Source: a virus
Direction: 5' to 3' (one strand)
Virus record (IMG/VR): IMGVR_UViG_3300045988_183322
DNA: 64,000 nt
Positions within the stretch are counted from its first letter, which is position 1. Each line of letters starts with the position of its first letter. Shown here one piece after another: positions 1,757 through 26,709 of the stretch. Below the pieces are notes generated by a model. The model worked only from the letters and a program-made list of their open reading frames with translations, searched no databases and was not told the DNA's origin. The translations under genes and the position numbers were made by a program.

Positions 1757-3448
1757 TTGATGAAACAAGAGATAAGAAGGCTATTTAAAGGAATACATCA
1801 TCCAAGAACTTTACATAAAATACTCAAGGACAATCCAGAGATAGTTGAGTACGCCAAAAGTGAAATAGAGAAATATTCGTATTATGAAAAAGTCGGATAT
1901 TATATCATATCTATAGCAAACGACATTGAGATAAAAAAGTGCCCTGTTTGTGGAAAAGAATTAAGCTATACTCAATGCATAAAGAATAAAAAGATATTTT
2001 GTAGTAGGTCTTGTTCAGCAACATATCAATTTTCTCATAAAAAAGATGCCTCTAAAAAAAAGCGTAGTACAGTAAAGTTACCTGCTCTTCCTTTATTTCC
2101 AATAAATGAAAAGGTAACATTGAGTAAACTAAGATGCCTGTATGCAGGAGCCGATATTACAAGGCTAAGATATGTAATAGCAAAGAACTCTTCAATCTTA
2201 TGTTTTTGCCAAAAAGCATTAGAAAAACATAAGGAATATCAAACAGAACAAATATTTCTTTACTGCATAATAAATAATCTAAAATTAAAAAAATGTAAGT
2301 TATGTGGAAAAAAGATGAACTATTATAAGTCCTATACTAGGCCAACATTTTATTGTTCATCAAAATGTAGTCACGCATCTTCTTCTTATAAAGAAAAGCA
2401 ACAAAAAAGTCATAACGATAGAAAATACGAAATATTAGTTCAGAGAGCCAGAGAAAAAAATTATGGAGTAATTACTCTTCGAGATGATTATAAGACTTCA
2501 AATCAAATTGAACTAAAGTGCTTAAAATGCAATAAAGTTTTCTCATCTCCATTATTGAATATATACAGAGACATGAGATGCCCATCTTGCGATAAAGTCT
2601 CATCTTTTTCATTCGAGAAAAAAATACGAGGCTTTATCTATTCATTAAACATAGATTTTACTTACAATAAGAAAGTTCTTCCTGATAAAAAAGAATTAGA
2701 TATATTTGTTCCTTCTAGAAATATCGCTATTGAATGCGATGGTCTCTATTGGCATTCATCTAAAAATGGAAAAGATAGAAACTATCATCTAAAGAAAACA
2801 AAACAGTGTGAAGAAAAGGGGATTTTTCTAATCCATATTTTTGAAGACGAATGGAGAGAAAAAAATAAAATTGTCAAGAATCGAATTAAATATATTCTCG
2901 GCAAAGCATCTTATAAGATAGGGGCAAGGGAATGCCGTATATCTCCAATTTCTAATGATGAAAGTAAAAAATTTTTAGATAAATATCATATTCAAGGAAA
3001 TGTATCTTCTCCTGTGAGATATGGATTATTTAAAAGAAACAGGCTAATAGCTGTAATGACTTTTGGCAAAAGCCGCTTCAACAAAAATTATGATTGGGAG
3101 CTTCTTAGATATTGTACTATTCCTAATTTCAATATAATAGGTGGGGCTTCTAAATTATTAAATCATTTTAGAAACCATCATTCTGGTTCTATTATTTCCT
3201 ATGCAGATAAAAGATGGAGCGATGGAAATCTTTATAGAAAACTTGGATTTATAGAATTAAAAGACAGTCAACCAAACTATTTTTATGTCAAAGACATAAG
3301 AAGATTTTCTAGAAATCAGTTTCAAAAGCACAAACTCAAAGATATTCTTAAAAAGTTTGACCCACTAATGACAGAAAAAGAAAATATGCTTGCTAATGGC
3401 TATTCTATTATTTGGGATTGCGGAAATAAAGTGTTTTCTTTAGAATAA
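1757..3448 (+). CDS. zinc-ribbon-rich endonuclease with a Vsr/DUF559-like PD-(D/E)xK core and a C-terminal domain of unknown function; putative free-standing homing endonuclease
   Basis: Three to four CxxC...C(S)xxCS zinc-ribbon units are present (CPVCGKEL...FCSRSCS, CKLCGKKM...YCSSKCS, CLKCNKV...CPSCD). The IAIECDGLYWHS motif resembles the E-x-DG-x-x-H core of Vsr/DUF559 endonucleases. The C-terminal block (IIGGASKLLNHF...ISYADKRWSDGNLY) is conserved-looking but unassigned. Confidence 0.45.
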   Translation: MMKQEIRRLFKGIHHPRTLHKILKDNPEIVEYAKSEIEKYSYYEKVGYYIISIANDIEIKKCPVCGKELSYTQCIKNKKIFCSRSCSATYQFSHKKDASKKKRSTVKLPALPLFPINEKVTLSKLRCLYAGADITRLRYVIAKNSSILCFCQKALEKHKEYQTEQIFLYCIINNLKLKKCKLCGKKMNYYKSYTRPTFYCSSKCSHASSSYKEKQQKSHNDRKYEILVQRAREKNYGVITLRDDYKTSNQIELKCLKCNKVFSSPLLNIYRDMRCPSCDKVSSFSFEKKIRGFIYSLNIDFTYNKKVLPDKKELDIFVPSRNIAIECDGLYWHSSKNGKDRNYHLKKTKQCEEKGIFLIHIFEDEWREKNKIVKNRIKYILGKASYKIGARECRISPISNDESKKFLDKYHIQGNVSSPVRYGLFKRNRLIAVMTFGKSRFNKNYDWELLRYCTIPNFNIIGGASKLLNHFRNHHSGSIISYADKRWSDGNLYRKLGFIELKDSQPNYFYVKDIRRFSRNQFQKHKLKDILKKFDPLMTEKENMLANGYSIIWDCGNKVFSLE

Positions 3449-6059: not shown

Positions 6060-9032
6060 TTATCTTCTCCCTTCTGCCTTCAACATAGTTATTTCTGGAC
6101 TTCTTAGAGTCATAGCCTCATCAACAAAATAATGGATAATCGAAGATGGATATCGACTTGCTAAATCATCAGCATTTAATGTCCACATATAAAAATAATA
6201 TTTATCTGATTCGGCACTAAAATAATAAGAAGTATCTCTATCAGCAGAAACTGTAATATCTATAAAAACTTGATTGGCTGAATTTTTGACGATAATCTTA
6301 TAAGCGGAAGCATGTTCTACAGCATCCCAAGTTAAAGTTAATCTTCCTAAATACCCTGTCTCTGGACTATCAAAAGATTCTTTTACAGCAAGATTATCTG
6401 GAGCAGGAAGAATACCCATCATTTTATCATACTCATCATCAGACATATCTTGATAATCCTTATTATAATTTTCGCTATTCGAAGCGTATAAAACTGGGTC
6501 ATTAGAAATTAAAGGAGAGGACTTTAATTTTGCAATAGATTTATAATGATTTTGTAAAGGAGTAGCAAGTTCTTCATACTGTTCTCTAGAAACATATGTT
6601 CCTACAACAGTATAAACACCATTACCTTCATCCCTAATAGTAGATAATCTATAAATTTGAGTAGAATTATCTTTTAAAGAAATAGAAACAACAGAACCTA
6701 TATAAAATCCACTAAAATCTGGACCAACATATTTCTTATGAACATAAAAAATTGTTTCTTCTACCCCAATAACCCATTTATCAGAAACTAATTGAAATAT
6801 GGTTTCTGGTGTAGGTTGTCCAGCTCCCCCCAAGGATTTATTAGGATTACTCCTATAAACTTGTATAATGATTTCTCCGTCGATATCAGCGCGTTCTAAA
6901 TCTAAAACGGTATCTACAGTAAAAGATAAATAATCATCTGCGTCTGGACCATGAATATCAACTAATCGCGCATAATTAACTGTTAAATTTATTAAATCAT
7001 CATCAACCAAAAACAAATCATTTAACTGCAACAATAAAGCATCATATCCTACAGAAAAAGATACTGTTTGGATAGCCTGAGATGATTGGACCAAAAATCT
7101 GTCTCCTATTCTTCGCGCCATCCCTTTAGAGCAACATCCCCAAGCATTCATAGCGACTTTTACGACTCCATTGTCTTTCAAGTCGCTTTCGTTCATTGCA
7201 TATTCAACTTTAGATTTATATAAATCTGTTTCATCATTATAAGTTACTTCAACCAAATTATATCTTTCATCTCTTCTGGACGAAGTATAGATAAATAATC
7301 CATCTACTACATTTCTATTATTAAATAACGCTCTAATTCGCGAATTAGATTCTTTATGAGTTAAAGAAATCTTACCATTATTCCAATAAAGAGAGGCATC
7401 TATTAAACCTAAAATTGAACTAACAACTTCTAACGTTTTCATCCTGTCCTTTAAAGTAGCAGAAAAGGAAAATCTTGGCTCTAGACCACCAAAACCATTA
7501 GAAAACCCAATAAAGTTCCCTTCTTCATCTACCCCATCACAATATTTTGCTACCTCATAAAACGAAAACATATCAATGTCTTCCATTGAAATGAAAGAAC
7601 CGAGGCCATACCTAGAATTAGTCAATAAATCCAAAGTTATCCAAACTGGATTATCTGTCCATCTCTTTACCAAAGAAATATAATCCCATTCGCCAACATA
7701 AACCTGTAATTTTTCTTCTTCTGTTGGCTTATCAATCGCTCTCTTATAACGCCTTCTATCCCTTTTGTGCTCCTTATAAATAGGAATTTTATTTCCCTCT
7801 TCGTCAAGAATAAAATTACCTTTGCTATCTTTTTCGTAACCGATGATTTCATATTCAGTTATCATCGGTTGGTAATTATTAGGGACGAAAACTTTCATTA
7901 GTCTCGCTAGATAAGCACGTTTAGGAACATTGGAAAATGTTCTTGCATCGCTTTTAACAGCCCCTAATGCACATAATGGATATTGCAAGAACATAGGGGA
8001 ATACTCACAAACTTTAGAAAGTGCTACAGTACGTTTAATGAGCGTAGAATAAGTTTCTGGAGTTGTTTTAGCCACCCTTAAAAATTTATAGGAAGTGTCT
8101 TCTCCACTCCAATTCTCCGGGAAAAAATATTTATCCATATTAACACCCGGTCTTCTATTTGAAATGACTCCCTGAAAAACCTTATATGGATTTTCAAAAT
8201 AGTTGTTAGCACCAAAATCAATAAAAACTTGGGATGTCGCCATCCCATACAAAACATAATGCTTTTTACCAGCAACTTCTTCTTTGCCATCTAAAGTAAC
8301 ACGACCCCAAGTTACATCAAATTCACAAAGTGTAGCATAATTGACTCCAGCTTTATATTCTTTGCCTGATATACTTCCCGGAATCCTATTATCTTTTTTA
8401 CTTCTCAAAGAGCCATCTTGACCTCCATCGATAGAACAAGTGTCGAATAATTGTTGTATGCCTATTGTAAAAGAAAAATAAATACAATCCTTATTTTTAA
8501 TTATATATGTTGCAGGGTCAGCAGTTTCATTAATATATTTTGAAGCTGTGTCCCACCATTTAGAGAAATCTTTATTATCATTAGCGGAACGAACGTCAAT
8601 GGAGTTCCATCCTTCTTTAGCTTGCCCATCACTCCTATTGTTAGGGAATAAATGCGGCCCAAATAAAGAACGATTGACATTATATTCCATTGAAGGACGA
8701 TTAAACCCTCTTAATGTGTCTTGATTAGAAAAACCTAATCTAGTATCATAAGCAAATCTTTGAAAATTATAAGAACCAGAAAGGTTCATCATTGGAACCT
8801 CGTCTAAATAAATAGCTTGAGGGATATCTTCTCCAACAACATTTTCCCCTGCTTCGCTAACAAAACCTTCAATGGGGCCTTCTGAAATAACATCAATAGC
8901 TTGGAAAGCCATGTTATTAACAAGAACATCTTCGACAGTATCAGGGTCAGGCGGATTTAATTTTGCTGGTTCCTGTTTGGCTTCACCACCACCACCACCA
9001 CCAATGATTTTTTTTACTTCAAAGTGTTTCAT
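6060..9032 (-). CDS. central tail fiber / host specificity protein J-like (990 aa)
   Basis: A ~1000 aa protein sits immediately downstream of the I-like gene, as J does in lambda. It has an N-terminal poly-Gly linker (GGGGGG). The assignment is positional only. Confidence 0.35.
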   Translation of the reverse strand: MKHFEVKKIIGGGGGGEAKQEPAKLNPPDPDTVEDVLVNNMAFQAIDVISEGPIEGFVSEAGENVVGEDIPQAIYLDEVPMMNLSGSYNFQRFAYDTRLGFSNQDTLRGFNRPSMEYNVNRSLFGPHLFPNNRSDGQAKEGWNSIDVRSANDNKDFSKWWDTASKYINETADPATYIIKNKDCIYFSFTIGIQQLFDTCSIDGGQDGSLRSKKDNRIPGSISGKEYKAGVNYATLCEFDVTWGRVTLDGKEEVAGKKHYVLYGMATSQVFIDFGANNYFENPYKVFQGVISNRRPGVNMDKYFFPENWSGEDTSYKFLRVAKTTPETYSTLIKRTVALSKVCEYSPMFLQYPLCALGAVKSDARTFSNVPKRAYLARLMKVFVPNNYQPMITEYEIIGYEKDSKGNFILDEEGNKIPIYKEHKRDRRRYKRAIDKPTEEEKLQVYVGEWDYISLVKRWTDNPVWITLDLLTNSRYGLGSFISMEDIDMFSFYEVAKYCDGVDEEGNFIGFSNGFGGLEPRFSFSATLKDRMKTLEVVSSILGLIDASLYWNNGKISLTHKESNSRIRALFNNRNVVDGLFIYTSSRRDERYNLVEVTYNDETDLYKSKVEYAMNESDLKDNGVVKVAMNAWGCCSKGMARRIGDRFLVQSSQAIQTVSFSVGYDALLLQLNDLFLVDDDLINLTVNYARLVDIHGPDADDYLSFTVDTVLDLERADIDGEIIIQVYRSNPNKSLGGAGQPTPETIFQLVSDKWVIGVEETIFYVHKKYVGPDFSGFYIGSVVSISLKDNSTQIYRLSTIRDEGNGVYTVVGTYVSREQYEELATPLQNHYKSIAKLKSSPLISNDPVLYASNSENYNKDYQDMSDDEYDKMMGILPAPDNLAVKESFDSPETGYLGRLTLTWDAVEHASAYKIIVKNSANQVFIDITVSADRDTSYYFSAESDKYYFYMWTLNADDLASRYPSSIIHYFVDEAMTLRSPEITMLKAEGRR

Positions 9033-9643
9033 CTTCCGCTCTCTTGGAGATAATCTTGCACTTCGACGTTTCCCCTTATGGAATTCAAAGAAGCGTAGAT
9101 AGACGTTCCGGGAACTAAAATCATTCCATACCCTAAAGGGACTGGCGTTCCCGAAGGAATACCTTGTTCTAATCCCATATAATTAGATGTCTTATTAGCA
9201 GACGTATCTGATTCTGCGCCTTGGCCGCCACCGCTAGGTTTAGAGAGAAGCGTTCCAATAGCAAGTAATGCGCCGCCAATCATAAGCATTGTCCCTGCTG
9301 ACATTCCTAAAATGGTTGTTGATAATAACGCCGCCGTTAAAGCTCCAGCGGTAAAAATAGCCCCAGCAACCGCTAAAACAGGAACTAAAACCCTAAATAT
9401 TCTTCCAATTCCCGCGCCGCAAATAATAGGAAGAATAATAAATTTCCCATCTTGTTTCATTAAAGTATATTCAAATCCATCTTTAGATAAGCGAATAATT
9501 CTATCTCTAAAACCTCTTAATTTTGAACAAAGCTCTTTTATGATATCTTTAATATCAGTAAAATACGTTTCGTATTTTAAATCATATTCAGTGCCTAAAA
9601 TTCCTTTAAACTCAACGATATACTTTTCCCTGCTCATAGTCAT
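9029..9643 (-). CDS. tail assembly protein I-like: small N-terminal domain plus a C-terminal glycine-zipper hydrophobic region
   Basis: This 204 aa protein lies directly downstream of the JAB (K-like) gene. Its C-terminal half is strongly hydrophobic and Gly/Ala-rich (ILPIICGAGIGRIF...LAVAGAIFTAGALTAALL...), as recalled for lambda gpI. Confidence 0.4.
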   Translation of the reverse strand: MTMSREKYIVEFKGILGTEYDLKYETYFTDIKDIIKELCSKLRGFRDRIIRLSKDGFEYTLMKQDGKFIILPIICGAGIGRIFRVLVPVLAVAGAIFTAGALTAALLSTTILGMSAGTMLMIGGALLAIGTLLSKPSGGGQGAESDTSANKTSNYMGLEQGIPSGTPVPLGYGMILVPGTSIYASLNSIRGNVEVQDYLQESGR

Positions 9644-10058
9644 GAATTATGATACTTTTTAAATCTTTAATTCCTTTTAAATAAGAAGATTTCTTATCTA
9701 AAATCTTGGGTAAAATTAAAGAAAAATTATTATCTCCAGCCCCATAAATAAGATATGGCAGACAAGTATTTCTACAGCCTAAATTATCATAAGCAGAAGG
9801 AGTAGATTCTTTTAAATGGTTATGATAAACAGCTATTATTTTATTTCTTATCAAAAAATCTAAATGGTCGTATGGACTGATTAAAAATGATTCATGCGGC
9901 TTATTGCACTTATTATCGCAAATAGCAACCACAAAACTTTTATGTCTTGGATTATAGCCTAAAAAACCGCAATTTTCAAGTGTGGGCATTTTTAAGCACT
10001 CATTTTCTATTCTTTGAAGGCACTCAGAAAGTGAGTCACAAAAAATTAAATCTTTCAT
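9612..10058 (-). CDS. JAB/MPN+ metalloprotease-domain protein (tail assembly protein K-like, without an NlpC/P60 domain)
   Basis: A JAMM motif is present: E (ENCGFLG)...H-N-H-x6-S-x2-D (YHNHLKESTPSAYD). It sits between the L-homolog and I-like genes. Confidence 0.55.
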   Translation of the reverse strand: MKDLIFCDSLSECLQRIENECLKMPTLENCGFLGYNPRHKSFVVAICDNKCNKPHESFLISPYDHLDFLIRNKIIAVYHNHLKESTPSAYDNLGCRNTCLPYLIYGAGDNNFSLILPKILDKKSSYLKGIKDLKSIIIHDYEQGKVYR

Positions 10059-15601: not shown

Positions 15602-17025
15602 AAAACTAATCTGGCAACAATAGATTCAATACTTTCTTTCTTCTCATGAGAAAAACCTAAGGATGAACTTTCTTCATCAATAGTTAAATAAAATAGGCAA
15701 AATGAAGAGAATGATTTTTTATTAGCCTGTAAAGAATGAAGCTTCAGATATGCCCCATAAGAATCTAAAATATCTATAGCTTTATCAGGATATTTTCTAT
15801 TCTTAAAAAACTCTTCGCAAATACTAATAATATTTTTAATAGTATTTTTGCCGTATCTAATTTCATGATACTGTTCGAACTTCTCTTTTATACCATTAAG
15901 AATTATTTTGACAGAATCAACAGTAGGCTCATCTATTTCAAGAGTAGAAAATCTCCTTTCTAAAGCAGAATCAGGATATATATATTCATTATATTCTTGA
16001 TAAGTTGTCGCACCTATGCAGATAATCTTACCCCTAGATAAATAAGGTTTAAGAATATTAGACAAATCACAAGAATCTTGAACTGATTTGCCGCCAGCAC
16101 CAACTATCATATGTATTTCATCAATAAATAAAATAATATCATCTCTTAATTCGAAATGATTTAATATTTTAGAAATTCTTTCTTCTGCTTGGCCTCTATA
16201 AGAGGTTCCAGAAATAAGTTGACATATATTCAAAGAATAGATTTCTCTCCCATCTAAAGACCCGTTTTCACCAATTCCATTGACAATATTATAGGCTAGT
16301 CCTTCAACAATTGCTGTCTTACCAACACCTGCTTCACCAATGAGAATGCAATTCGGTTTATTTTTCTTATTTAAAATATGAACAATTTTCGAAATTTCTT
16401 TCTCTCTTCCAATTGCTGGATGATGGGGATAATTTTTTATTTCATCTGTTATATTATGAAAATAAGAAAAAATATTATCATTTTGTGCAAACTCATTTTC
16501 ATCAAACTTTACGCTTTTTTCATCTGATAAATCCAAAGCAGATTCTTTGCTGTCATAAGAAAGAAAAGAATTGATAGCACTTTTTTTACCATAAAAACAG
16601 CACTCTACAGCCTTCAAAAATTCAATTAAATCTTTGCAATCGAAAAACAATGAACAAAAATCTTTGCAAGTAGAAGAGTTTTCCAATAAAAATTTTAATA
16701 AGTGCTCTTTTCGTATATCGTTTCTGAGGTCCTTCCCGCAATTATAAAATATAGAGCTTAAATATCCACTAACATCATCGTTGGAAATAACATCATTATC
16801 TATCGACCCTTCTACAACAGAAATATGTGGGTCTAACTCGTTTATCCGTTTTAAAATAACATCTTGAGAGATATTTCTATTTATCAAATAATCAGAAATG
16901 AAAATTGTTGGTTCATTAAAAATAATGAATAAAAAGCATTTTAAAGAATCAATTCTACATTTCTCCTTTTGAGAAAAAATATACAATTCTTTTACAAGGG
17001 TCGAAAAACAATCGTTATTCTGCAT
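15598..17025 (-). CDS. ClpA/ClpB-like AAA+ ATPase (single D1-type module)
   Basis: AIGREKEISKIVHILNKKNKPNCILIGEAGVGKTAIVEGLAYNI matches the Clp ATPase D1 signature (IGRdeEi.r.iqiL.Rr.KnNPvLiGEpGVGKTAivEGLA). The Walker B motif is LFIDEIHMIVGAG. Confidence 0.7.
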   Translation of the reverse strand: MQNNDCFSTLVKELYIFSQKEKCRIDSLKCFLFIIFNEPTIFISDYLINRNISQDVILKRINELDPHISVVEGSIDNDVISNDDVSGYLSSIFYNCGKDLRNDIRKEHLLKFLLENSSTCKDFCSLFFDCKDLIEFLKAVECCFYGKKSAINSFLSYDSKESALDLSDEKSVKFDENEFAQNDNIFSYFHNITDEIKNYPHHPAIGREKEISKIVHILNKKNKPNCILIGEAGVGKTAIVEGLAYNIVNGIGENGSLDGREIYSLNICQLISGTSYRGQAEERISKILNHFELRDDIILFIDEIHMIVGAGGKSVQDSCDLSNILKPYLSRGKIICIGATTYQEYNEYIYPDSALERRFSTLEIDEPTVDSVKIILNGIKEKFEQYHEIRYGKNTIKNIISICEEFFKNRKYPDKAIDILDSYGAYLKLHSLQANKKSFSSFCLFYLTIDEESSSLGFSHEKKESIESIVARLVL

Positions 17026-20000
17026 CTTTTAAATCAGCAAATCTAGAATAAATCTTTTCTTCTACAATTGAAAGACCTGTAACAAAAACAATATCTTTAC
17101 TCTTTGAGCCAACGACAACAATTATATTTCCATCATGGGGGCGTTTACCGCCATTTGCAATATAATTACTTAGAGTAAGAGAAGGGTTTCTTCCATTTCG
17201 GGAATCCATCATTAAACACATGACTTTGCCTTTATCATCATTTATGGAAAAACGCCAATATTTTTCTCCATTCTTTTTGGATTTCCCCTCTTGAAAATCA
17301 TCAGAAGCCCATCCAACTATCTTAACTGTAGTATATTCTGCTAACTGTTTAATCTCTTGACAGTCTGTCATAGAAGAGCTTTTATCAGCAAAAATGTCTT
17401 TGACGTTTTTAGAATAAGCATAACCTAATACTCTTTTTTCATAATACCAGTCTGCAAAATCTGGCATTTTATTATTCTGTTCATAAATAGCTTTAAACTT
17501 TCTGCATTTATCTTGTAGAGATGAAAATCCACCACGGAATAGAACTCTTCCATTGGAGTCTCTAGTTTCGTTTTTAACGCAATCTGAAATAATCAACAAT
17601 AAATCAGGCTCATCTTGTGAAGATTCATTCAATTTATTTTTATAAATTGCAAAAACAGCGTCTCTTTGGCGCGGAGTTAGAACATTTATTACTTGCAATG
17701 TATAAACCATGTAACAACGTTCATGACCATTCAAGAAACTATCAAATAACCCAGCTTGAGCGAATGAACTTAACACTCCAATAGATAACCCAGCGCGTTT
17801 AGCGGAATTATAGATATCACAAATATCTCTTTGAGTATCATTTCTAAAATTAACTACTTTTTGAAGCGTTTGAGCGGAAACACCTTTAATAGATGCTAAA
17901 CCATACCTTATATTGTCGCCTTCAATAGCAAAATGAAGATGGGAATTAGCTAAATCAGGAGGTAGCAACTTTATACCAAAATAAGGAAGTTCTTGAGAAA
18001 TTTTTTCAATTTCAGCAAACGGGTCTGGTTCAGCATTAGCTTGCTCTAAAAGGGTACAGAAGAACTCTTTAGGAAACCAATATTTCAAATAAACTGTTTT
18101 TGCGGCTGTAGCGGCATAGGAAATGCTATGCGAATTAGAGACTACAACACCATTACAATAAAAATTATGGTCGGGGGAATCTACCTCTAAATCAATGCAA
18201 TCTTCAAACTTGATGTTCGAAAACTCTTCAAGTTCGGCTTCGCCAGATTCGGTCAAAATCATATGTGTTGGGGAGCCATAAGAAAGAGCATCATTCAATA
18301 TCTTGATTATTTCAATCATCTTGAAATTCTCACTATCAAGATACTTATGACGGAAAGACGAACGAATTTTAAATGTCTCAGAGACTTCTGTATAAGAAAA
18401 TGGACCATCTGCAAAACTTTCGTAAACAGATAATTTAAAATCGGCTAATACATTTTGGCTCTTATAAATATTAACCACTTTAACGAAATAGTCTTTCTTT
18501 CCTTTAACATCAAATGCCTTAATGGAGTCGCCAATTTTAACCTTTGAAAGAGGAATTTTTTCGCCAGATTCTAATTCTACCGTATTATTAAGGCCTAAAC
18601 ATCTATTAAAAGAGTAATTTGCAGACTCTTGGCATACATGCCAAAAATACAAAGCGGCTTCTTCTGAAATGCCATTCTTTTTAGCCCCATCAAGAATCTC
18701 TTGTTCAAACTGAGGCATCTTTTCCACCTGCTTCTTACCAACACATTTCCTGAGCGCATCAGCGCGTTCGAGAGTAAACCCAAAAATCTTGTGAGCAATA
18801 TTCATTAACGTCTCTTGGAATAAAAGAATGCCTTTTGTCTGGCCCAAAAGCGAATCCATATGTTCATCACCAGACGGGCGCATTTCGCCAGTATTCTTAG
18901 CTTTCACATAATCATTCACATAAGCCAAAGCGCCCGGACGTGCAAGAGCCACCACGTCAGAAAGTTCATCTAGATTATCAGGAGCTACCACTTGAGCGAC
19001 ACGATAATTTGTATCAGATTCAATCTGAAAAAGGCCTTTAGGCATTAAGTATTCATTGATATATTTATAGATTTCTGGATTTCTATAATCAATGTCCTTA
19101 TGATTAATGCCAAGCATATCGCAAGTTTCTTTAATTTGAGTAAGAGTCCTTAAACCTAATAAATCAAACTTGGTCATAATTTCGGCCACTTCTCCCATTT
19201 CAAACCCGGAGATTAAATCTCCTTCTTTTGTAGTTTGAAGAGGCATAGTTTCACTCAAAGGAAAAGCGCAAATAGCAATTCCCGATGGATGAACACCAGT
19301 ATTCTTATTCAAATTCTCTAATTTTAAAGAAATAAGATAAATCTTTTCATTAGAATTACAAAATTCTTTAAATTCTTTCGAAGTTTCATAAGCTTCTGAA
19401 AGTGGACGAACAACACCATATTTCTTAGGAATCAAATCAGAAATTGCCTTAGTGTCTTCTTCATGATAACCACCAGCTAATTTCATCGTTTCCTTAATAC
19501 AAAGTTTACCTGATAATGTGCTAACTGTCAAAATTTTGCAAGCATTTCCATTAAAACGTTGGAAAACGAAATCTACAACTTTTGACCTATCTGAATAAGA
19601 AATATCCAAATCACAATCAGCAAGTAATCCGCCATCCAAATAAACTTTACCATCTTTGCCAATTTTCTTTTGAGCACGAGCCATTGAAACAAATCTTTCA
19701 AAAATGAGATTATGTTCAAGAGGGTCAATGCCAGTAACACCAGTGAGGTAGAAAACTAAGCATCCTGCCGCTGAGCCTCGCCCATCACCAACTGGAATAC
19801 CAGAGGAATTGCAAAATCTTACAATTTCTCGGTTAAGAAGCATATAATCTATAAATCCACAAGCTTCAAGAACTTCTAATTCATAATCCAATCTTTTTTT
19901 GTAATCTTCAAAATTGGGAAGATTATCAATTCCTAATCTTTTAAATCCATTCTCGCAAAGAGCTTTTAAAAAATCATATGAAGAACAATTTCCATCTAAA

Positions 20001-21547
20001 CCTAATTGGATTGCTTCATCTTGGGGAATGTCCGCTTTAGGAAGTATAACTCCTTCCAACATAGGAGTATCATAAATTTGGTTATTCTCAATCAGTTTTT
20101 GAGAATATTCGTTCTCAAGAGAAAGAGAATAATCCTTGTTGATAAAACATGTTTCATTTTCTAAACCTAAAGCTCTTATAAGGCGAATGAATAATTCACC
20201 TGTCATTTCAGTGTCAACAAGGGCATCATGTAATTTATCTTCTTTATACTTGATGCCAAATTTATCAAGCATAGAACTTAATTTGACAGAGATTCTACCT
20301 TTCGGCTTAAAATTAAGAAGCTTATAGCAAAACTCAATCATAGTTTCATTTTCAGAACGATGGAAATTGAGTAGATAAGCCCTAGAAAGGGGAACAGTAT
20401 CTATACATTTATAAAGGAAAGAATAGTCTTCCAGATAACCAATGCATTTTCTTGCTATATTTAGAATAAAAATATCAAAACCAATGATATTTTGGCCTGC
20501 CAGAATTGTGTCTGGTTGATAAATTAAATTCCAAAATTTATCAATAATTTCTTTAGGATTTTCTTTCTTTACATCATATACTTTTTTATCAAAACCTGTT
20601 ACAGCCGCCGCTTCTTTTGAAACATTTAAATTATCCCATGCAAGATAATGCATTTCTTTGTTGAGAACCTTGCCATTTTTCATTTCGACCCAAGCAATCT
20701 GCCAAGGGCGGGAGGTTCTCAGATTCAATCCTTCGGTTTCTGTATCGAAAAGAATAATCCTTTTGTCTTTTAAAGAAAAATCTTCTTTAGGATGATAATT
20801 GAAGCTACATTTTCTATTTTCTTTCCAATCCTCAAAACAAAATTTATTACTACCAAAATGAGGGAGATTAGGTTTGTCTAAAGTGCTATTCCCATAAACA
20901 GAACGCCCACATATTAATCTATATACTGTGTAAGAATCAAAATCATCATAATTTTCATAATAGATTGATTTGCAAAATACGATGCGATTTTCATTGATGG
21001 AGCAATATTGTTTTACTCTATCTTGCACAATATCATCAAATGGATGACAATTATTTTCAACGCAGACAAAAGGAGACTTAATGCCGAAATCGGGCAAACA
21101 ATTCGATAGAGTCAAACAATTTTTTGCAATAAAAGAATCGTAGAATGGTAAACCGAAATCTATGTTGGACGAGCTGTCCCAAATATCTCTAAGAATCTTA
21201 TAATCAATACATTTTTTATCATTGGTGTGAACCGAGGTATAAAGCTTAATTAAGTCTTTGTAGCCATCATCATTTTTCATAATGGCTATCATTTTACAAC
21301 GCGAACTAACTATATCCTCATAAGATTCTTCTAAAGAATTACAAATATCGAATCTAATACCATAAATTAATTTAATGCCAGTCTTTTTGCTCAAACGTAG
21401 GGCTTCTGGAAACCCTATCATCATATCCTCAATAAGAACAACAGAATCAAGTCTATTATCTCCTGCTAAACGGAATACATCACTAACAGTTAAAATAGAT
21501 TTCCCTATTGAGTTGTGAGTCTTAAAGAATGGAATCGCATCTGGCAT
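17015..21547 (-). CDS. family C replicative DNA polymerase (PolC/DnaE-like alpha subunit) with a PHP domain, an inserted DnaQ-like 3'-5' exonuclease and a mini-intein
   Basis: The PHP N-terminus is present ([13 protein letters not shown]...). The exonuclease motifs are Exo I FDTETEGL, Exo II [9 protein letters not shown] and Exo III [14 protein letters not shown]. The pol III alpha signature [31 protein letters not shown] is present. The conserved F-N-K/R-SHS-AAYA motif is split by a 156 aa insert. Confidence 0.85.
   Translation of the reverse strand: [1510 protein letters not shown]
18134..18601 (-). mobile_element. mini-intein (156 aa) inserted in the pol III alpha FN(K/R)|SHS motif
   Basis: The insert begins with [27 protein letters not shown] (intein block A). 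It ends with [23 protein letters not shown], followed by SHS (blocks F/G). The +1 residue is Ser. Removing it restores [25 protein letters not shown]. Confidence 0.75.
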
Positions 21548-23999: not shown

Positions 24000-26450
24000 T
24001 TAGAATGGAACAGTATAACCTTTCTCTTTTTTTATGGGGGTATTATTAGCAGAGAACGAACGAACAATATCTCTTAAATCTCCTTTATCTTCAATAGAAA
24101 AATTCTTAAAATCTAAATTAATGGAATTCCTTCTTACTGAACCATCAGGCATATTTACTAAATTTAAATATCCGCTAACATCTTCACCAAGAAATCTTCC
24201 TTTAATGAAGATTAATTTATGAGTCCCAAAATTGGGGCCTTGCAATTTATATTCGTCATTAGTGATATTTCTTAAAATAGCACAATGTGAAGCATAATGA
24301 ATCAACCTATCAGAAAGACCAAAAACATTTTCCGAATCTTCCATTTCATTGAAGGTTTTTTTAGCAACAATCCCCAACTTATTAGACTGAACAGAAGTCA
24401 ACATTGAAATAACAGGTTTCCTATCAACTTTAATTTCATCATGGATAAGAGTCTTAAACTTATCCATCAAGCGGCCTAAATATTGATGCTCCTGCTCATT
24501 AAATGTTCCATTTTGGGAAGGTTTCATATAGTCATAACAGAAAATCATCTGTCCACCATGACAAACATTGTCATAAAAGCTCTTTATCAAGTCTCTCATT
24601 TCTTCATAACTTTTCCCCGCTACTTGATAATAAAACATTTCTTTTCCTTCTGTTGCTAACAAAGCTTGTTTCAATTTAGCAACACTCTGAGGAGACTTGC
24701 ACCATTTACCAGACTCAATATCATAATAATTAACGCCGCTCAAAGCCGATAAACGCCTATATTGCAACTCGCGTTCTGACATTTCGCCATTATCAAAATG
24801 AAGGATAGGAACCTTATAAGTTTCAGAAACTTTAGTCGCAATATCCATTGTTATTTGCGTATTATGAGTCAATATATTATTTTCCAATAAGAATAAATGC
24901 GATGGATTATTGACTAAAATACAAGTACAGGATAATTTACCGATTGGCCGTGCGTCATATATTTTAATATAATCTTGAACATAGCGACTATGAATTCCAA
25001 CTTTATTTTTGCAAAGTTTATACTCTCCATATTTGCTAGTGAAACAAGTTACATCAAACTTTTTCTTTTTCGAAGAAAAATTAACCTTTCCAAATCCGCC
25101 AACAGAACGAAAAATATTAATAATTAAATTCGCATATTCATTATCTTCCGTAGAAAATCTAATTTTAGTTTTTATCCCTAATCTATCGTCCTTAGCGAGA
25201 CTCAAACTAGAATTATCTGTCTGAATATAAAATTGAGGATTTTCTCTGATATATTCTTTAATAAAGAATACCCTTCCATATAAAGGAAATCTTTCAAAAT
25301 CTATTTTATCTAAAGCTCTATCTTTTAATCCTTCCATATCTGGAAAAAGATTAGAAAGATGCTCATATTCTTCATCCTCAATTTTTCCATCTCTAAAATA
25401 TTTCCCAAGAAGAACGTAGTCTTTTCTTTCGGCTTTTTTATAAATATTCTTTTTGACGAAATAAGAAGTAGGAATATAAAGTTTTTCTCCCCCTTTCAAT
25501 CTGCGGGCAATTTCAGCAGAAGTAATAACTTCTATTTTCTTTTTCTTATTGATGAAACTGCAAACTTCCCAAAGATGGTCATAGGAGCTTACAGTAGGAT
25601 TTCTACTATCCTCCCAATAAAATTTAATCATGTTCTTTCTTCCTTGAGGAAAAACACCTAAAACTCGCGCTTTTTGTCCTTTAACAGAAAAAACTTCATT
25701 CCCCTTTTTTAGGTCGCAAATGCGCTTTAGAGACCCATCTGCCATACGAACATTTTCATAATCGGCCAAAGCTTTTCCAACGCCAGAACGAGAAGTAAAA
25801 AGAGTGATATTGCCCGGTCTAGTAAGAGAACCAAAGATATTCTGAACAGTGGGATAAGGGCATGGATAGCCCTTCGTTGAAAAATCCTGATTTTTTGTCT
25901 CTTCTAAGGCTTCTGCAATATCTTGATAAATATTAATAGGTCTATCTGAACCTCTATCGACTCTACTTACGCATTCTGAAAATATTTTTTCAGCTTTCGA
26001 AATTGATATATTAGGATTATCAAAGGGGGTATTTAAAAGATTATATTGAATTTCAGAAGTTGCGATAAAAATCTTCCTTCGGACAGAAGCTTCTTTTAAA
26101 ATATTAGCTAGCCCTTTATGATTATCATCTCTGATAATCATAACCCCTAAAGATTCAATATACTGACTAATGTCCATATTGGCAACACTAGTCAAACGGA
26201 CAACACCAGAGTTTTTTATTTCATCAATAACAGCAGGGATAGAAACATACTTATATCTATCGAAACATTTTAGACATAAGTCATAAACAGTTTTATTTAC
26301 GGTGTCGCTCCCATTTTCAAAATCATCTTTTTTTAAAATAGTAACAACATCATCAATAACACCTCTTCGCGTCAAAATTAAAGCAAGCAAGCTCTTTTCG
26401 ACGCCTAAAAGATTAAATTTCTTATTGAAAATATCTCTATTCATCCTCAA
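24000..26450 (-). CDS. DnaB-like replicative helicase containing a ~304 aa intein in the Walker A P-loop
   Basis: The N-terminal domain is DnaB-like (LLGVEKSLLALIL...). The P-loop SRSGVGK|...|TQITMD is split by an insert. The C-terminal part carries the LHFDNGEMSERELQYRRLSALSGV motif (DnaB motif SLEMS..qL..R.ls..s.v). Confidence 0.7.
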   Translation of the reverse strand: MRMNRDIFNKKFNLLGVEKSLLALILTRRGVIDDVVTILKKDDFENGSDTVNKTVYDLCLKCFDRYKYVSIPAVIDEIKNSGVVRLTSVANMDISQYIESLGVMIIRDDNHKGLANILKEASVRRKIFIATSEIQYNLLNTPFDNPNISISKAEKIFSECVSRVDRGSDRPINIYQDIAEALEETKNQDFSTKGYPCPYPTVQNIFGSLTRPGNITLFTSRSGVGKALADYENVRMADGSLKRICDLKKGNEVFSVKGQKARVLGVFPQGRKNMIKFYWEDSRNPTVSSYDHLWEVCSFINKKKKIEVITSAEIARRLKGGEKLYIPTSYFVKKNIYKKAERKDYVLLGKYFRDGKIEDEEYEHLSNLFPDMEGLKDRALDKIDFERFPLYGRVFFIKEYIRENPQFYIQTDNSSLSLAKDDRLGIKTKIRFSTEDNEYANLIINIFRSVGGFGKVNFSSKKKKFDVTCFTSKYGEYKLCKNKVGIHSRYVQDYIKIYDARPIGKLSCTCILVNNPSHLFLLENNILTHNTQITMDIATKVSETYKVPILHFDNGEMSERELQYRRLSALSGVNYYDIESGKWCKSPQSVAKLKQALLATEGKEMFYYQVAGKSYEEMRDLIKSFYDNVCHGGQMIFCYDYMKPSQNGTFNEQEHQYLGRLMDKFKTLIHDEIKVDRKPVISMLTSVQSNKLGIVAKKTFNEMEDSENVFGLSDRLIHYASHCAILRNITNDEYKLQGPNFGTHKLIFIKGRFLGEDVSGYLNLVNMPDGSVRRNSINLDFKNFSIEDKGDLRDIVRSFSANNTPIKKEKGYTVPF
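24861..25772 (-). mobile_element. intein (~304 aa, Ala1-type) in the helicase P-loop, large enough to carry a homing-endonuclease domain
   Basis: The insert begins ALADYENVRMADGSLKRICDL (block A pattern CLAxDTxVxLADG with Ala at position 1). It ends LFLLENNILTHN, followed by T (+1). Splicing would restore GVGKT. The central region has LAGLIDADG-like stretches (VLLGKYFRDGKI and LIINIFRSVGGFGKV), which is a weak call. Confidence 0.65.
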
Positions 26451-26709
26451 AATCAGAAAAAGGATATCCTACAGAACAATAATTAGCATCATATTCTGCA
26501 ATCATATTTCTTATGTTCTGAATTAAGCCATCAAAAATGACTCCTTCTCCAGCCTCATATCTGCAAACTTTTCCATTCTTGTCGCAAGCAAAAAGAATAT
26601 ATCCTTTGAATTCTCCTGATGCTGAACCAGAATATTCATATATGACCTTTCTTACTTCGGGAGGAATTGCCTCCAATTTTTCGCAATCCATACTATAATT
26701 CCACGCCAA
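26437..26709 (-). CDS. hypothetical protein
   Basis: A 90 aa acidic ORF that overlaps its neighbours by a few nt. Confidence 0.25.
   Translation of the reverse strand: MAWNYSMDCEKLEAIPPEVRKVIYEYSGSASGEFKGYILFACDKNGKVCRYEAGEGVIFDGLIQNIRNMIAEYDANYCSVGYPFSDFEDE

What the first reader, a model, noticed from the sequence alone, without database searches (positions are those of the whole stretch)
24861..25772. Large Ala1-type intein splitting the Walker A P-loop of the DnaB-like helicase
The helicase P-loop reads SRSGVGK, then a ~304 aa insert, then TQITMD. The insert opens with the intein block A pattern (ALADYENVRMADGSLKRICDL, compare CLAxDTxVxLADG) and closes with ...LLENNILTHN followed by Thr(+1). 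Splicing would restore GVGKT. Position 1 is Ala rather than Cys or Ser, so it belongs to a non-canonical, class-2/3-like splicing group. Its size leaves room for a homing-endonuclease domain, and there are weak LAGLIDADG-like stretches. An intein in an essential replication gene is a clear sign of selfish-element traffic in this phage.
Basis: partly seen in the sequence, partly recalled or inferred. Interest (0 to 1): 0.75.

Follow-up and report, generated by a model that had tools for sequence, protein, structure and literature searches.

The report
Class 3 intein in phage helicase
A 304-residue self-splicing protein element (a class 3 intein carrying a shrunken remnant of a homing endonuclease) interrupts the ATP-binding loop of this phage's replicative helicase. 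It is real, but it is an ordinary example of a well-described kind.

Summary
The minus-strand gene 24000-26444 encodes a DnaB-family helicase whose Walker A loop reads GVGK, then 304 residues (window 24861-25772), then T. Of the 113 best homologs of about 504 aa, 108 read RSxxGK[T/S] without interruption, so the segment is an insertion into a conserved site. It has the intein (HINT) fold (AlphaFold pLDDT 82.7; Foldseek PI-SceI E 2.6e-14). Every class 3 sequence signature is present: Ala1, block B His66-x-Trp68, block F Cys284, Thr302-His303-Asn304, Thr+1. These residues are invariant in seven diverged orthologous inteins and match the experimentally studied prototype from mycobacteriophage Bethlehem. 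Nearly all of 183 intein segments in its closest sequence relatives are class 3 P-loop inteins too. Residues 104-265 are a LAGLIDADG-derived domain that has lost about 50 residues, the beta-sheet of its first half. It also has Asn at the second catalytic Asp position, so it is probably not an active homing endonuclease, yet it remains under purifying selection (dN/dS about 0.2). The intein looks old and fixed in this phage clade: no empty allele was found. Verdict: a new member of a known kind, of low to moderate interest.

The parts
24000..26444 (-). Host gene: DnaB-family replicative helicase precursor, 814 aa plus stop. The ATG at 26444 is used by homologs; the ORF listing extends the ORF to a TTG at 26450.
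   Evidence: Pfam DnaB N-terminal domain E 1.7e-7 and DnaB_C; TIGR00665 E 9e-23; phrog_19. Homolog starts; coordinates checked.
25773..26444 (-). N-extein (aa 1-224), ending in the first part of Walker A, ...SRSGVGK (GVGK = 25773-25784).
24861..25772 (-). Intein, 304 aa (Ala1 ... Asn304).
   Evidence: The insertion is absent from about 504-aa homologs. HINT fold; 1503 intein relatives.
25734..25772 (-). Block A, ALADYENVRMADG. Position 1 = Ala (25770-25772), so there is no N-terminal nucleophile.
   Evidence: Ala1 in 7 of 8 orthologs, Ser in P0007.
25563..25604 (-). Block B, RNPTVSSYDHLWEV. His66 (B:10) and Trp68 (B:12, the W of WCT) lie at 25569-25577.
   Evidence: H66, L67 and W68 are invariant in 8 orthologs. 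They align with His65/Trp67 of the Bethlehem prototype.
24978..25463 (-). Middle domain (intein aa 104-265): a truncated LAGLIDADG-type domain. The first half keeps only helices; the second half is a complete alpha-beta-beta-alpha-beta-beta-alpha unit.
25386..25412 (-). LAGLIDADG motif 1, LLGKYFRDG (aa 121-129). The catalytic-position Asp128 is retained.
   Evidence: Aligns with LGVLLGDG of relatives and LGLWLGDG of the Bethlehem intein. Asp in 7 of 8 orthologs.
25239..25265 (-). LAGLIDADG motif 2 remnant, FIKEYIREN (aa 170-178). The catalytic Asp position is Asn178.
   Evidence: Aligns with LLQGLMDTDG of relatives. Asn in the four family members in that alignment (window, P0004-P0006) and read as Asn in P0001-P0003 from the alignment; Lys in P0007.
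24861..24926 (-). Blocks F and G, TCILVNNPSHLFLLENNILTHN. Cys284 (F:4; 24921-24923), His292, Phe294, Thr302 (G:5), His303, Asn304 (24861-24869).
   Evidence: T283, C284, I285, S291, H292, L293, T302, H303 and N304 are invariant. Spacing is the same as Cys320/His328/Phe330/Thr339/Asn341 of the prototype.
24003..24860 (-). C-extein (286 aa), starting with Thr+1 (24858-24860), the Walker A Thr and the +1 nucleophile.

Best explanation
This is a class 3 ('WCT') intein inserted between the Lys and Thr of the Walker A motif of a tailed phage's DnaB-family helicase. The helicase is made as an 814-aa precursor whose ATP-binding loop is broken. The inferred reaction follows the class 3 pathway established for the Bethlehem intein. 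Cys284 (block F, position 4) attacks the Lys(-1)-Ala1 peptide bond, helped by His66 and Trp68, and the N-extein moves onto the intein as a thioester. It is then passed to the hydroxyl of Thr+1. Asn304 cyclises, helped by His303, and releases the intein. An O-to-N shift restores GVGK-T and yields a 510-aa active helicase. The middle of the intein is what remains of a LAGLIDADG homing endonuclease. It has lost the DNA-binding sheet of its first half and the second catalytic Asp. So it most likely no longer homes and is kept because its correct folding is needed for splicing of an essential protein. Shown here: position, fold, motifs, conservation, empty-site homologs, domain truncation and selection pattern. 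Inferred: the chemistry, actual splicing, and loss of endonuclease activity.
For: Insertion into a conserved site: 113 of the 120 best homologs are 434-523 aa, and 108 of these read RSxxGK[T/S] uninterrupted. The spliced sequence scores better against DnaB_C. Fold: AlphaFold pLDDT 82.7, pTM 0.78. Foldseek PDB hits are PI-SceI (E 2.6e-14), TliVMA and PhoVMA inteins, PI-PfuI, and the class 3 MchDnaB-1 (6rix/6riy) and M. smegmatis DnaB (6bs8) inteins. Class 3 signature: Ala1, His66-x-Trp68, Cys284, Thr302-His-Asn304, Thr+1, invariant in 8 orthologs whose inteins are only 28-99% identical. The signature aligns residue for residue with the prototype in Bethlehem gp11 (residue roles from PMC2807308). 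Relatives: of the 190 intein segments paired in the 155 proteins analysed (the seven orthologs plus the other listed hits), 188 have Thr at G:5, 187 a block F Cys, 187 HxW and 187 Thr/Ser at +1; of the 183 outside the family, 152 follow GK and 119 of these start with Ala. Selection (dN/dS): exteins 0.03-0.07, splicing domain 0.08-0.10, middle domain 0.20-0.26. Endonuclease remnant.
Against: No experiment was possible, so splicing and the order of its chemical steps are inferred from sequence. Pfam Hom_end_hint is below its cut-off (19.9 vs 32.1 bits), and NCBIfam has no hit for the insert. Grafting WCT onto a class 1 intein did not give a splicing-proficient class 3 intein (PMC7664689), so the triplet alone does not prove activity. 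The middle domain is still under purifying selection and keeps Asp128, so some activity cannot be excluded. dS is about 1, so dN/dS values are rough.
Confidence: 0.87

Rival explanations
1. The intein is still a mobile element. Its compact LAGLIDADG domain would be an active endonuclease, perhaps a single-site nickase or a dimer, that cuts intein-less helicase alleles of co-infecting phages and drives homing.
For: Motif 1 keeps Gly and Asp-Gly at the canonical positions, with Asp128 in 7 of 8 orthologs. The domain folds confidently and evolves under purifying selection, dN/dS about 0.2. Inteins move in this phage group, as shown by the polymerase site polymorphism.
Confidence: 0.1
2. The insert is a dead or non-splicing HINT-derived insertion, either a structural domain kept in the mature helicase or a pseudo-intein.
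For: Position 1 is not a nucleophile. A class 3-like intein pseudogene is documented (Arthrobacter Arth_1007, PMC3196547).
Against: The insertion breaks GxxGK|T of an essential ATPase. All catalytic residues are invariant across orthologs down to 28% intein identity, and the splicing domain has dN/dS 0.08-0.10. The gene sits in a conserved replication module of many related phage contigs. The Arth_1007 case has WDT instead of WCT and only 66 extein residues.
Confidence: 0.03
3. It splices by the class 1 or class 2 route: residue 1 acts, or the +1 residue attacks the N-terminal junction directly as in KlbA inteins.
For: Ala1 is shared with class 2 KlbA inteins. One ortholog (P0007) has Ser1.
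Against: The +1 residue is Thr, not the Cys of the class 2 KlbA intein. The full WCT triplet is present. In the sequence survey of PMC2807308, KlbA inteins lack it, and 34 of 37 WCT inteins lack an N-terminal nucleophile. The closest relatives are WCT inteins.
Confidence: 0.03

Closest known systems
Mycobacteriophage Bethlehem 'DnaB' intein (MP-Be DnaB; prototype class 3 intein, PMC2807308). I located it in gp11 of AY500153, aa 141-481.
   Same: Ala1, block B His-x-Trp, block F Cys-Ile-(6 residues)-His-Leu-Phe, Ile-Leu-Thr-His-Asn|Thr, phage origin, and a LAGLIDADG domain between blocks B and F.
   Different: The Bethlehem intein is 341 aa with a full two-half LAGLIDADG domain (Asp/Asp, 97 residues apart). 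In the record used it lies in a 903-aa gene annotated 'hypothetical protein', just upstream of the portal gene, not in the annotated DnaB-like helicase gp62. Its N-terminal flank is ...SQDQPL, not GK. Overall sequence similarity is low.
Mycobacterial DnaB P-loop class 3 mini-inteins (M. smegmatis DnaBi1, PDB 6bs8; M. chimaera MchDnaB-1, PDB 6rix/6riy).
   Same: Class 3 WCT inteins inserted in the P-loop of the replicative helicase DnaB, with a hydroxyl +1 residue (PMC6195587). They are structural matches of the splicing domain.
   Different: They are mini-inteins with only a linker in place of the endonuclease. They are cellular, not phage. Sequence identity is about 9-11% in the structural alignments.
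PI-SceI and other LAGLIDADG-bearing inteins (TliVMA, PI-PkoII, PI-PfuI).
   Different: They are class 1 inteins with Cys1 and complete, active two-half endonuclease domains. Here half of the domain is reduced to helices and one catalytic Asp is replaced.
Class 2 KlbA inteins (Methanococcus jannaschii KlbA).
   Same: Ala at position 1.
   Different: In PMC2807308, KlbA inteins lack the WCT triplet, and Mja KlbA has Asp at F:4. From general knowledge of this family, Cys+1 attacks directly. Here the WCT triplet is present and +1 is Thr.

Membership tests
Intein (HINT splicing domain) | In-frame insertion in a conserved site of a host protein, with homologs that lack it. | tested here: met
   113 of the 120 best homologs are 434-523 aa, and 108 of these read RSxxGK[T/S] contiguously. 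The alignment gap is exactly the 304 aa.
Intein (HINT splicing domain) | Hedgehog/intein fold formed by the N- and C-terminal parts. | tested here: met
   AlphaFold pLDDT 82.7. There are 42 PDB matches at E<=1e-3, almost all intein chains and the rest Hedgehog or BIL (HINT-fold) domains. The Pfam Hom_end_hint hit is only sub-threshold.
Intein (HINT splicing domain) | C-terminal His-Asn followed by a Cys/Ser/Thr +1 residue. | tested here: met
   His303-Asn304 | Thr+1, invariant in 8 orthologs.
Intein (HINT splicing domain) | Autocatalytic protein splicing. | not testable with these tools
   Needs expression followed by Western blot or mass spectrometry.
Class 3 intein (WCT) | No Cys/Ser/Thr nucleophile at position 1. 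| tested here: met
   Ala1 in the window and in 6 of 7 orthologs; Ser in P0007. PMC2807308 reports 3 of 37 WCT inteins with Ser or Cys at position 1.
Class 3 intein (WCT) | Trp at block B position 12, two residues after the block B His. | tested here: met
   His66-Leu67-Trp68 is invariant and aligns with His65/Trp67 of the prototype.
Class 3 intein (WCT) | Cys at block F position 4. | tested here: met
   Cys284 is invariant. It aligns with Cys320 of the prototype and with the engineered D107C of gp41-1_WCT.
Class 3 intein (WCT) | Thr at block G position 5, and Thr or Ser at +1. | tested here: met
   Thr302 and Thr+1 are invariant.
Class 3 intein (WCT) | Obligate block F thioester branched intermediate. 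| not testable with these tools
   Needs C284A, N304A and T+1A mutants and trapping of the intermediate.
Class 2 intein (KlbA type) | Ala1 with Cys+1 attacking directly; no WCT triplet. | tested here: not met
   +1 is Thr, and the WCT triplet is present.
Class 1 intein | Cys/Ser/Thr at position 1 and usually Asp at F:4. | tested here: not met
   Ala1; Cys at F:4.
LAGLIDADG homing endonuclease (intein-borne, monomeric) | Two LAGLIDADG helices, each ending in a catalytic Asp or Glu. | tested here: not met
   Motif 1 LLGKYFRDG keeps Asp128. In motif 2, FIKEYIREN, the position aligned with the catalytic Asp is Asn178.
LAGLIDADG homing endonuclease (intein-borne, monomeric) | Two alpha-beta-beta-alpha-beta-beta-alpha half-domains forming a DNA-binding saddle. 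| tested here: not met
   Only the second half has the four strands. There are 49 residues between the catalytic positions, against 95-110 in full-size relatives.
LAGLIDADG homing endonuclease (intein-borne, monomeric) | Overall fold similarity to solved LAGLIDADG enzymes. | tested here: met
LAGLIDADG homing endonuclease (intein-borne, monomeric) | Site-specific DNA cleavage. | not testable with these tools
   Needs an in vitro cleavage assay.
DnaB-family replicative helicase (host protein) | DnaB N-terminal domain plus a RecA-type C-terminal ATPase domain with Walker A. | tested here: met
   PF00772 E 1.6e-7 and PF03796 E 4.6e-11 on the spliced sequence; TIGR00665 E 9e-23, below its equivalog cut-off. 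Next to the primase, PD-(D/E)XK nuclease and Pol III alpha genes.

The most novel reading that the evidence does not exclude
The half-deleted LAGLIDADG domain may not be mere debris. It keeps one intact catalytic motif (Asp128), folds confidently and is under purifying selection (dN/dS about 0.2) across a phage clade in which the intein is fixed. It could have a retained or new role. One option is a single-site nickase or DNA-binding module. Another is a regulator that, together with the conserved Cys282-x-Cys284 pair, makes helicase maturation conditional on redox or metal state, as shown for the mycobacterial DnaB class 3 intein.
Probability: 0.12. Interest if true: 0.45.

Novelty: new member of a known kind. 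Interest (0 to 1): 0.25.

Why it matters
For annotation, the helicase gene should be described as an intein-containing precursor: a mature 510-aa helicase plus a 304-aa intein. It should not be read as an 814-aa helicase or a fusion. For intein biology, it adds a divergent class 3 intein at the classic Lys|Thr P-loop site. This one comes from a low-G+C, uncultured tailed phage far from the actinobacteriophages where the class was defined, which fits the proposed phage origin of class 3 inteins. The family also offers a graded natural series, 28-99% identical, of a class 3 intein with a half-deleted endonuclease domain. That series could help in studying how endonuclease domains decay without breaking splicing, or as raw material for compact class 3 splicing tools. 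None of this changes current understanding.

Tried and rejected
1. A word-indexed protein search with the intein alone found nothing, although orthologs exist in that collection. The exhaustive HMMER search was needed.
2. NCBIfam gave no hit for the insert, and Pfam gave only a sub-threshold Hom_end_hint hit.
3. A profile of the middle domain against PDB sequences gave only noise, best E 0.21. Its LAGLIDADG ancestry became visible only through structure prediction and alignment with full-size relatives.
4. My first reading put Glu177 as the second catalytic residue. I dropped this after alignment with full-size relatives placed Asn178 at the Asp position.
5. I looked for the prototype intein in Bethlehem's annotated DnaB-like helicase gp62. 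That gene is only 273 aa and intein-free; the intein is in gp11.
6. Megablast of 12 kb around the gene against 50,697 phage genomes gave no match.
7. A search for an intein-free allele of this clade (DNA encoding GVGKTQITMD) found none in IMG/VR or in JGI metagenomes.
8. An HMM of this intein family found no second copy in the window.
9. There are no tRNAs in the window.
Full report
**1. Observation**

The region lies in a single minus-strand ORF, 24000..26450. Homologs start at the ATG at 26444, which gives an 814-aa product. The translation reads ...LFTSRSGVGK | ALADYENVRMADGSLKRICDL ... PSHLFLLENNILTHN | TQITMDIATK...

The host protein is a DnaB-family helicase:
- Pfam DnaB N-terminal domain, E 1.7e-7.
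- TIGR00665, E 9e-23.
- phrog_19, E 2.6e-21.

In the intact sequence the DnaB_C match begins only after the insert and scores 26.1 bits, below the cut-off of 27. With the insert removed it scores 43 bits (E 4.6e-11) and runs through the rejoined P-loop.

**2. It is an insertion into a conserved site**

A search with the spliced sequence returned 985 homologs. Among the best 120:
- Seven are 804-820 aa and 56-100% identical in the exteins.
- The other 113 are 434-523 aa (median 504) and 37-40% identical over 93-97% of the spliced query.

In the alignment the short homologs have one gap, which coincides exactly with the 304 residues. They read GVGK-T without interruption. Of the 113, 108 contain RSxxGK[T/S].

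**3. It is an intein**

Several independent searches agree.
- phmmer of the insert against 1.84 billion representative proteins gave 1503 hits at E<=1e-3. The typical hit matches residues about 10-130 and about 200/265-304 as two separate stretches. Many target proteins carry two such pairs, which is the pattern expected of the split splicing domain of inteins.
- Against PDB sequences the best hits are the gp41-1 intein and PI-SceI.
- An AlphaFold model from the 8-sequence family alignment is confident: mean pLDDT 82.7, pTM 0.78.
- Foldseek against the PDB returns almost only inteins. These include PI-SceI (E 2.6e-14, TM 0.65), the TliVMA and PhoVMA inteins, PI-PfuI, Prp8, GyrA, DnaE and RecA inteins. 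They also include the class 3 inteins MchDnaB-1 (6rix/6riy) and M. smegmatis DnaB (6bs8).

**4. It is class 3**

Class 3 inteins are defined by three features (PMC2807308; PMC5050341):
- A non-nucleophilic residue 1.
- A co-varying Trp (block B position 12), Cys (block F position 4) and Thr (block G position 5).
- Thr or Ser at +1.

Here the block B motif is Ser63-Tyr-Asp-His66-Leu-Trp68. Block F is Thr-Cys284-Ile-Leu-Val-Asn-Asn-Pro-Ser-His292-Leu-Phe294. Block G is Ile-Leu-Thr302-His303-Asn304, followed by Thr+1.

Conservation supports this. In the eight orthologous inteins, 28-99% identical overall, the invariant residues include H66, L67, W68, T283, C284, I285, S291, H292, L293, T302, H303 and N304. 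Position 1 is Ala in seven and Ser in one.

I located the prototype intein in Bethlehem gp11 (aa 141-481). Its residue numbers reproduce those in the paper: His65, Trp67, Cys320, Ile321, Asp324, His328, Phe330, Thr339, Asn341. In a joint alignment the window's residues fall on the same columns.

The window's relatives are of the same kind.
- I paired 190 intein segments in 155 proteins (the seven orthologs plus the other listed hits of the exhaustive search). Of these, 188 have Thr at G:5, 187 a block F Cys, 187 His-x-Trp, and 187 Thr/Ser at +1.
- Of the 183 segments outside the family, 152 lie directly after a GK, and 119 of those begin with Ala.

Class 2 and class 1 are therefore excluded on tested features.

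**5. Likely mechanism (inferred from the prototype)**

1. Cys284 attacks the Lys(-1)-Ala1 bond, and the N-extein moves onto the intein.
2. The N-extein is transferred to Thr+1.
3. Asn304 cyclises, helped by His303, and the intein is released.
4. An O-to-N acyl shift restores GVGKT.

Because the insert splits Walker A, the precursor should be inactive as an ATPase until it splices. The same was argued for the mycobacterial P-loop DnaB intein (PMC6195587).

**6. The middle domain**

The secondary structure of residues 104-265 runs in this order:
- A helix ending in LLGKYFRDG (121-129).
- Two to three short helices.
- A helix carrying FIKEYIREN (170-178).
- Then beta-beta-alpha-beta-beta-alpha.

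Alignment with full-size class 3 relatives of about 340 aa, and with the Bethlehem intein, makes the homology explicit.
- Motif 1 aligns with LGVLLGDG and keeps the catalytic Asp (D128).
- Motif 2 aligns with LLQGLMDTDG, but the catalytic Asp position is Asn178. It is Asn in seven of the eight family inteins and Lys in P0007.
- Only 49 residues separate the two catalytic positions, against 95-110 in full-size relatives.
- The missing stretch is the beta-sheet of the first half-domain.

The modal size of related inteins is 325-375 aa; this one is 304. It is unlikely to make the double-strand cut needed for homing.

**7. Evolutionary state**

Extein and intein identities to the window fall in step across the orthologs:

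| Ortholog | Extein identity | Intein identity |
|---|---|---|
| P0001 | 100% | 99% |
| P0002 | 94% | 77% |
| P0003 | 87% | 77% |
| P0004 | 84% | 47% |
| P0005 | 78% | 47% |
| P0006 | 68% | 28% |
| P0007 | 56% | 30% |

Gene order around the helicase is conserved in the related contigs.

Nei-Gojobori dN/dS for window/P0002/P0003 pairs is as follows, with dS near 1, so the values are rough:
- Exteins: 0.03-0.07.
- Splicing domain: 0.08-0.10.
- Middle domain: 0.20-0.26.

The middle domain diverges fastest (19-35% identity in distant orthologs), but it is not evolving neutrally.

A degenerate DNA pattern for an intein-free allele (GVGKTQITMD) found nothing in IMG/VR or in JGI metagenomes. The occupied junction (THN|TQITMD) is present on 7 IMG/VR contigs of 39-173 kb. 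Six of these have both junctions on the fetched DNA and carry the full intein with WCT.

The intein therefore looks ancient and fixed in this clade. It is in the post-homing, endonuclease-decay stage of the intein life cycle. The simplest reason for the residual constraint is that a misfolded insert would block maturation of an essential helicase.

**8. Context**

The window is from a tailed phage. It carries:
- A 2561-aa tape-measure protein.
- A tail fibre J-like protein.
- A UvsX-like recombinase.
- A replication block of Pol III alpha, PD-(D/E)XK nuclease, DnaG-type primase and DnaB.

It has no close relative among 50,697 deposited phage genomes.

**9. Comparison with known systems and verdict**

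Class 3 inteins in P-loops of phage and bacterial helicases and terminases are well documented. The Lys|Thr position is called the 'classic' P-loop insertion (PMC5050341). DnaB itself hosts class 3 P-loop inteins in mycobacteria (PMC6195587).

This is a new, divergent member of that kind. Its only mildly unusual trait is a half-deleted LAGLIDADG domain that remains under selection. I score interest at 0.25.

Noticed in passing
window 17015-21547 (-), site at 18743-18748 (Lys934|Cys935, ...ADALRK|CVGKKQ...): The Pol III alpha gene here (1510 aa) has an empty intein site. Close relatives carry an intein at exactly this point. L005 has a 159-aa class 1 mini-intein (CVSGNT...MVIHN|CVGKK) there. 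The same 1669-aa Intein_splicing product length is listed for L001 and L006. L008 has a larger insert beginning at the same point, and L008/L009 products carry Intein_splicing and LAGLIDADG_3 Pfam hits. L002 is empty like the window. This presence/absence polymorphism is the real sign of ongoing intein traffic in this phage group.
   Followed up: partly
window 24921-24929 (-), intein Cys282-Thr283-Cys284: A second Cys sits two residues before the catalytic block F Cys (a CxC pair). It is conserved in 7 of 8 orthologs and present in 52 of about 180 related class 3 inteins. Given the redox and zinc control shown for the mycobacterial DnaB class 3 intein, it might make splicing sensitive to oxidation or metals. 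This is untested.
   Followed up: partly
window 26444-26450 (-): The mechanical ORF starts at a TTG (26450), but orthologs begin MNRDIF/MNKDIF, which points to the ATG at 26444. The upstream gene (26437-26709) then overlaps the helicase start by 8 bases.
   Followed up: partly
P0007 (ortholog, 804 aa), intein position 1: The most divergent ortholog has Ser instead of Ala at intein position 1 and has lost both LAGLIDADG catalytic positions (Lys/Lys). It keeps the full WCT triplet, so it is a class 3 intein with a potential N-terminal nucleophile.
   Followed up: no
L013 and L015 (IMGVR_UViG_3300045988_183135, 173,439 bp; _181608, 100,684 bp): In the stretches printed (block A, block B, blocks F-G and the flanking extein residues), two IMG/VR viral contigs encode the same intein and junction sequence as the window. 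The window's phage may therefore have a genome of 100 kb or more. Four other IMG/VR contigs carry the P0006-type ortholog.
   Followed up: partly
window 1757-3448 (+): This 563-aa protein has strong PHROG matches labelled 'homing endonuclease' or 'HNH endonuclease' (phrog_3339 E 9e-116; phrog_559 E 3e-112). Its Pfam hits are only weak, to the Mom DNA-modification family and REase_MTES_1575. It may be a DNA-modification enzyme rather than a nuclease.
   Followed up: no
AY500153 (mycobacteriophage Bethlehem) 7260-9971, gp11: The literature's 'MP-Be DnaB intein' lies in a 903-aa gene annotated as hypothetical (terminase-like position, just upstream of the portal gene). It is not in the phage's annotated DnaB-like helicase gp62, which is 273 aa and intein-free. 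The name is historical.
   Followed up: yes
(method): The word-indexed protein search returned no hit for the intein alone, even though near-identical orthologous inteins (P0001, 99%) are in the same collection and were found through the extein query. A null result from that tool is not evidence of absence.
   Followed up: no
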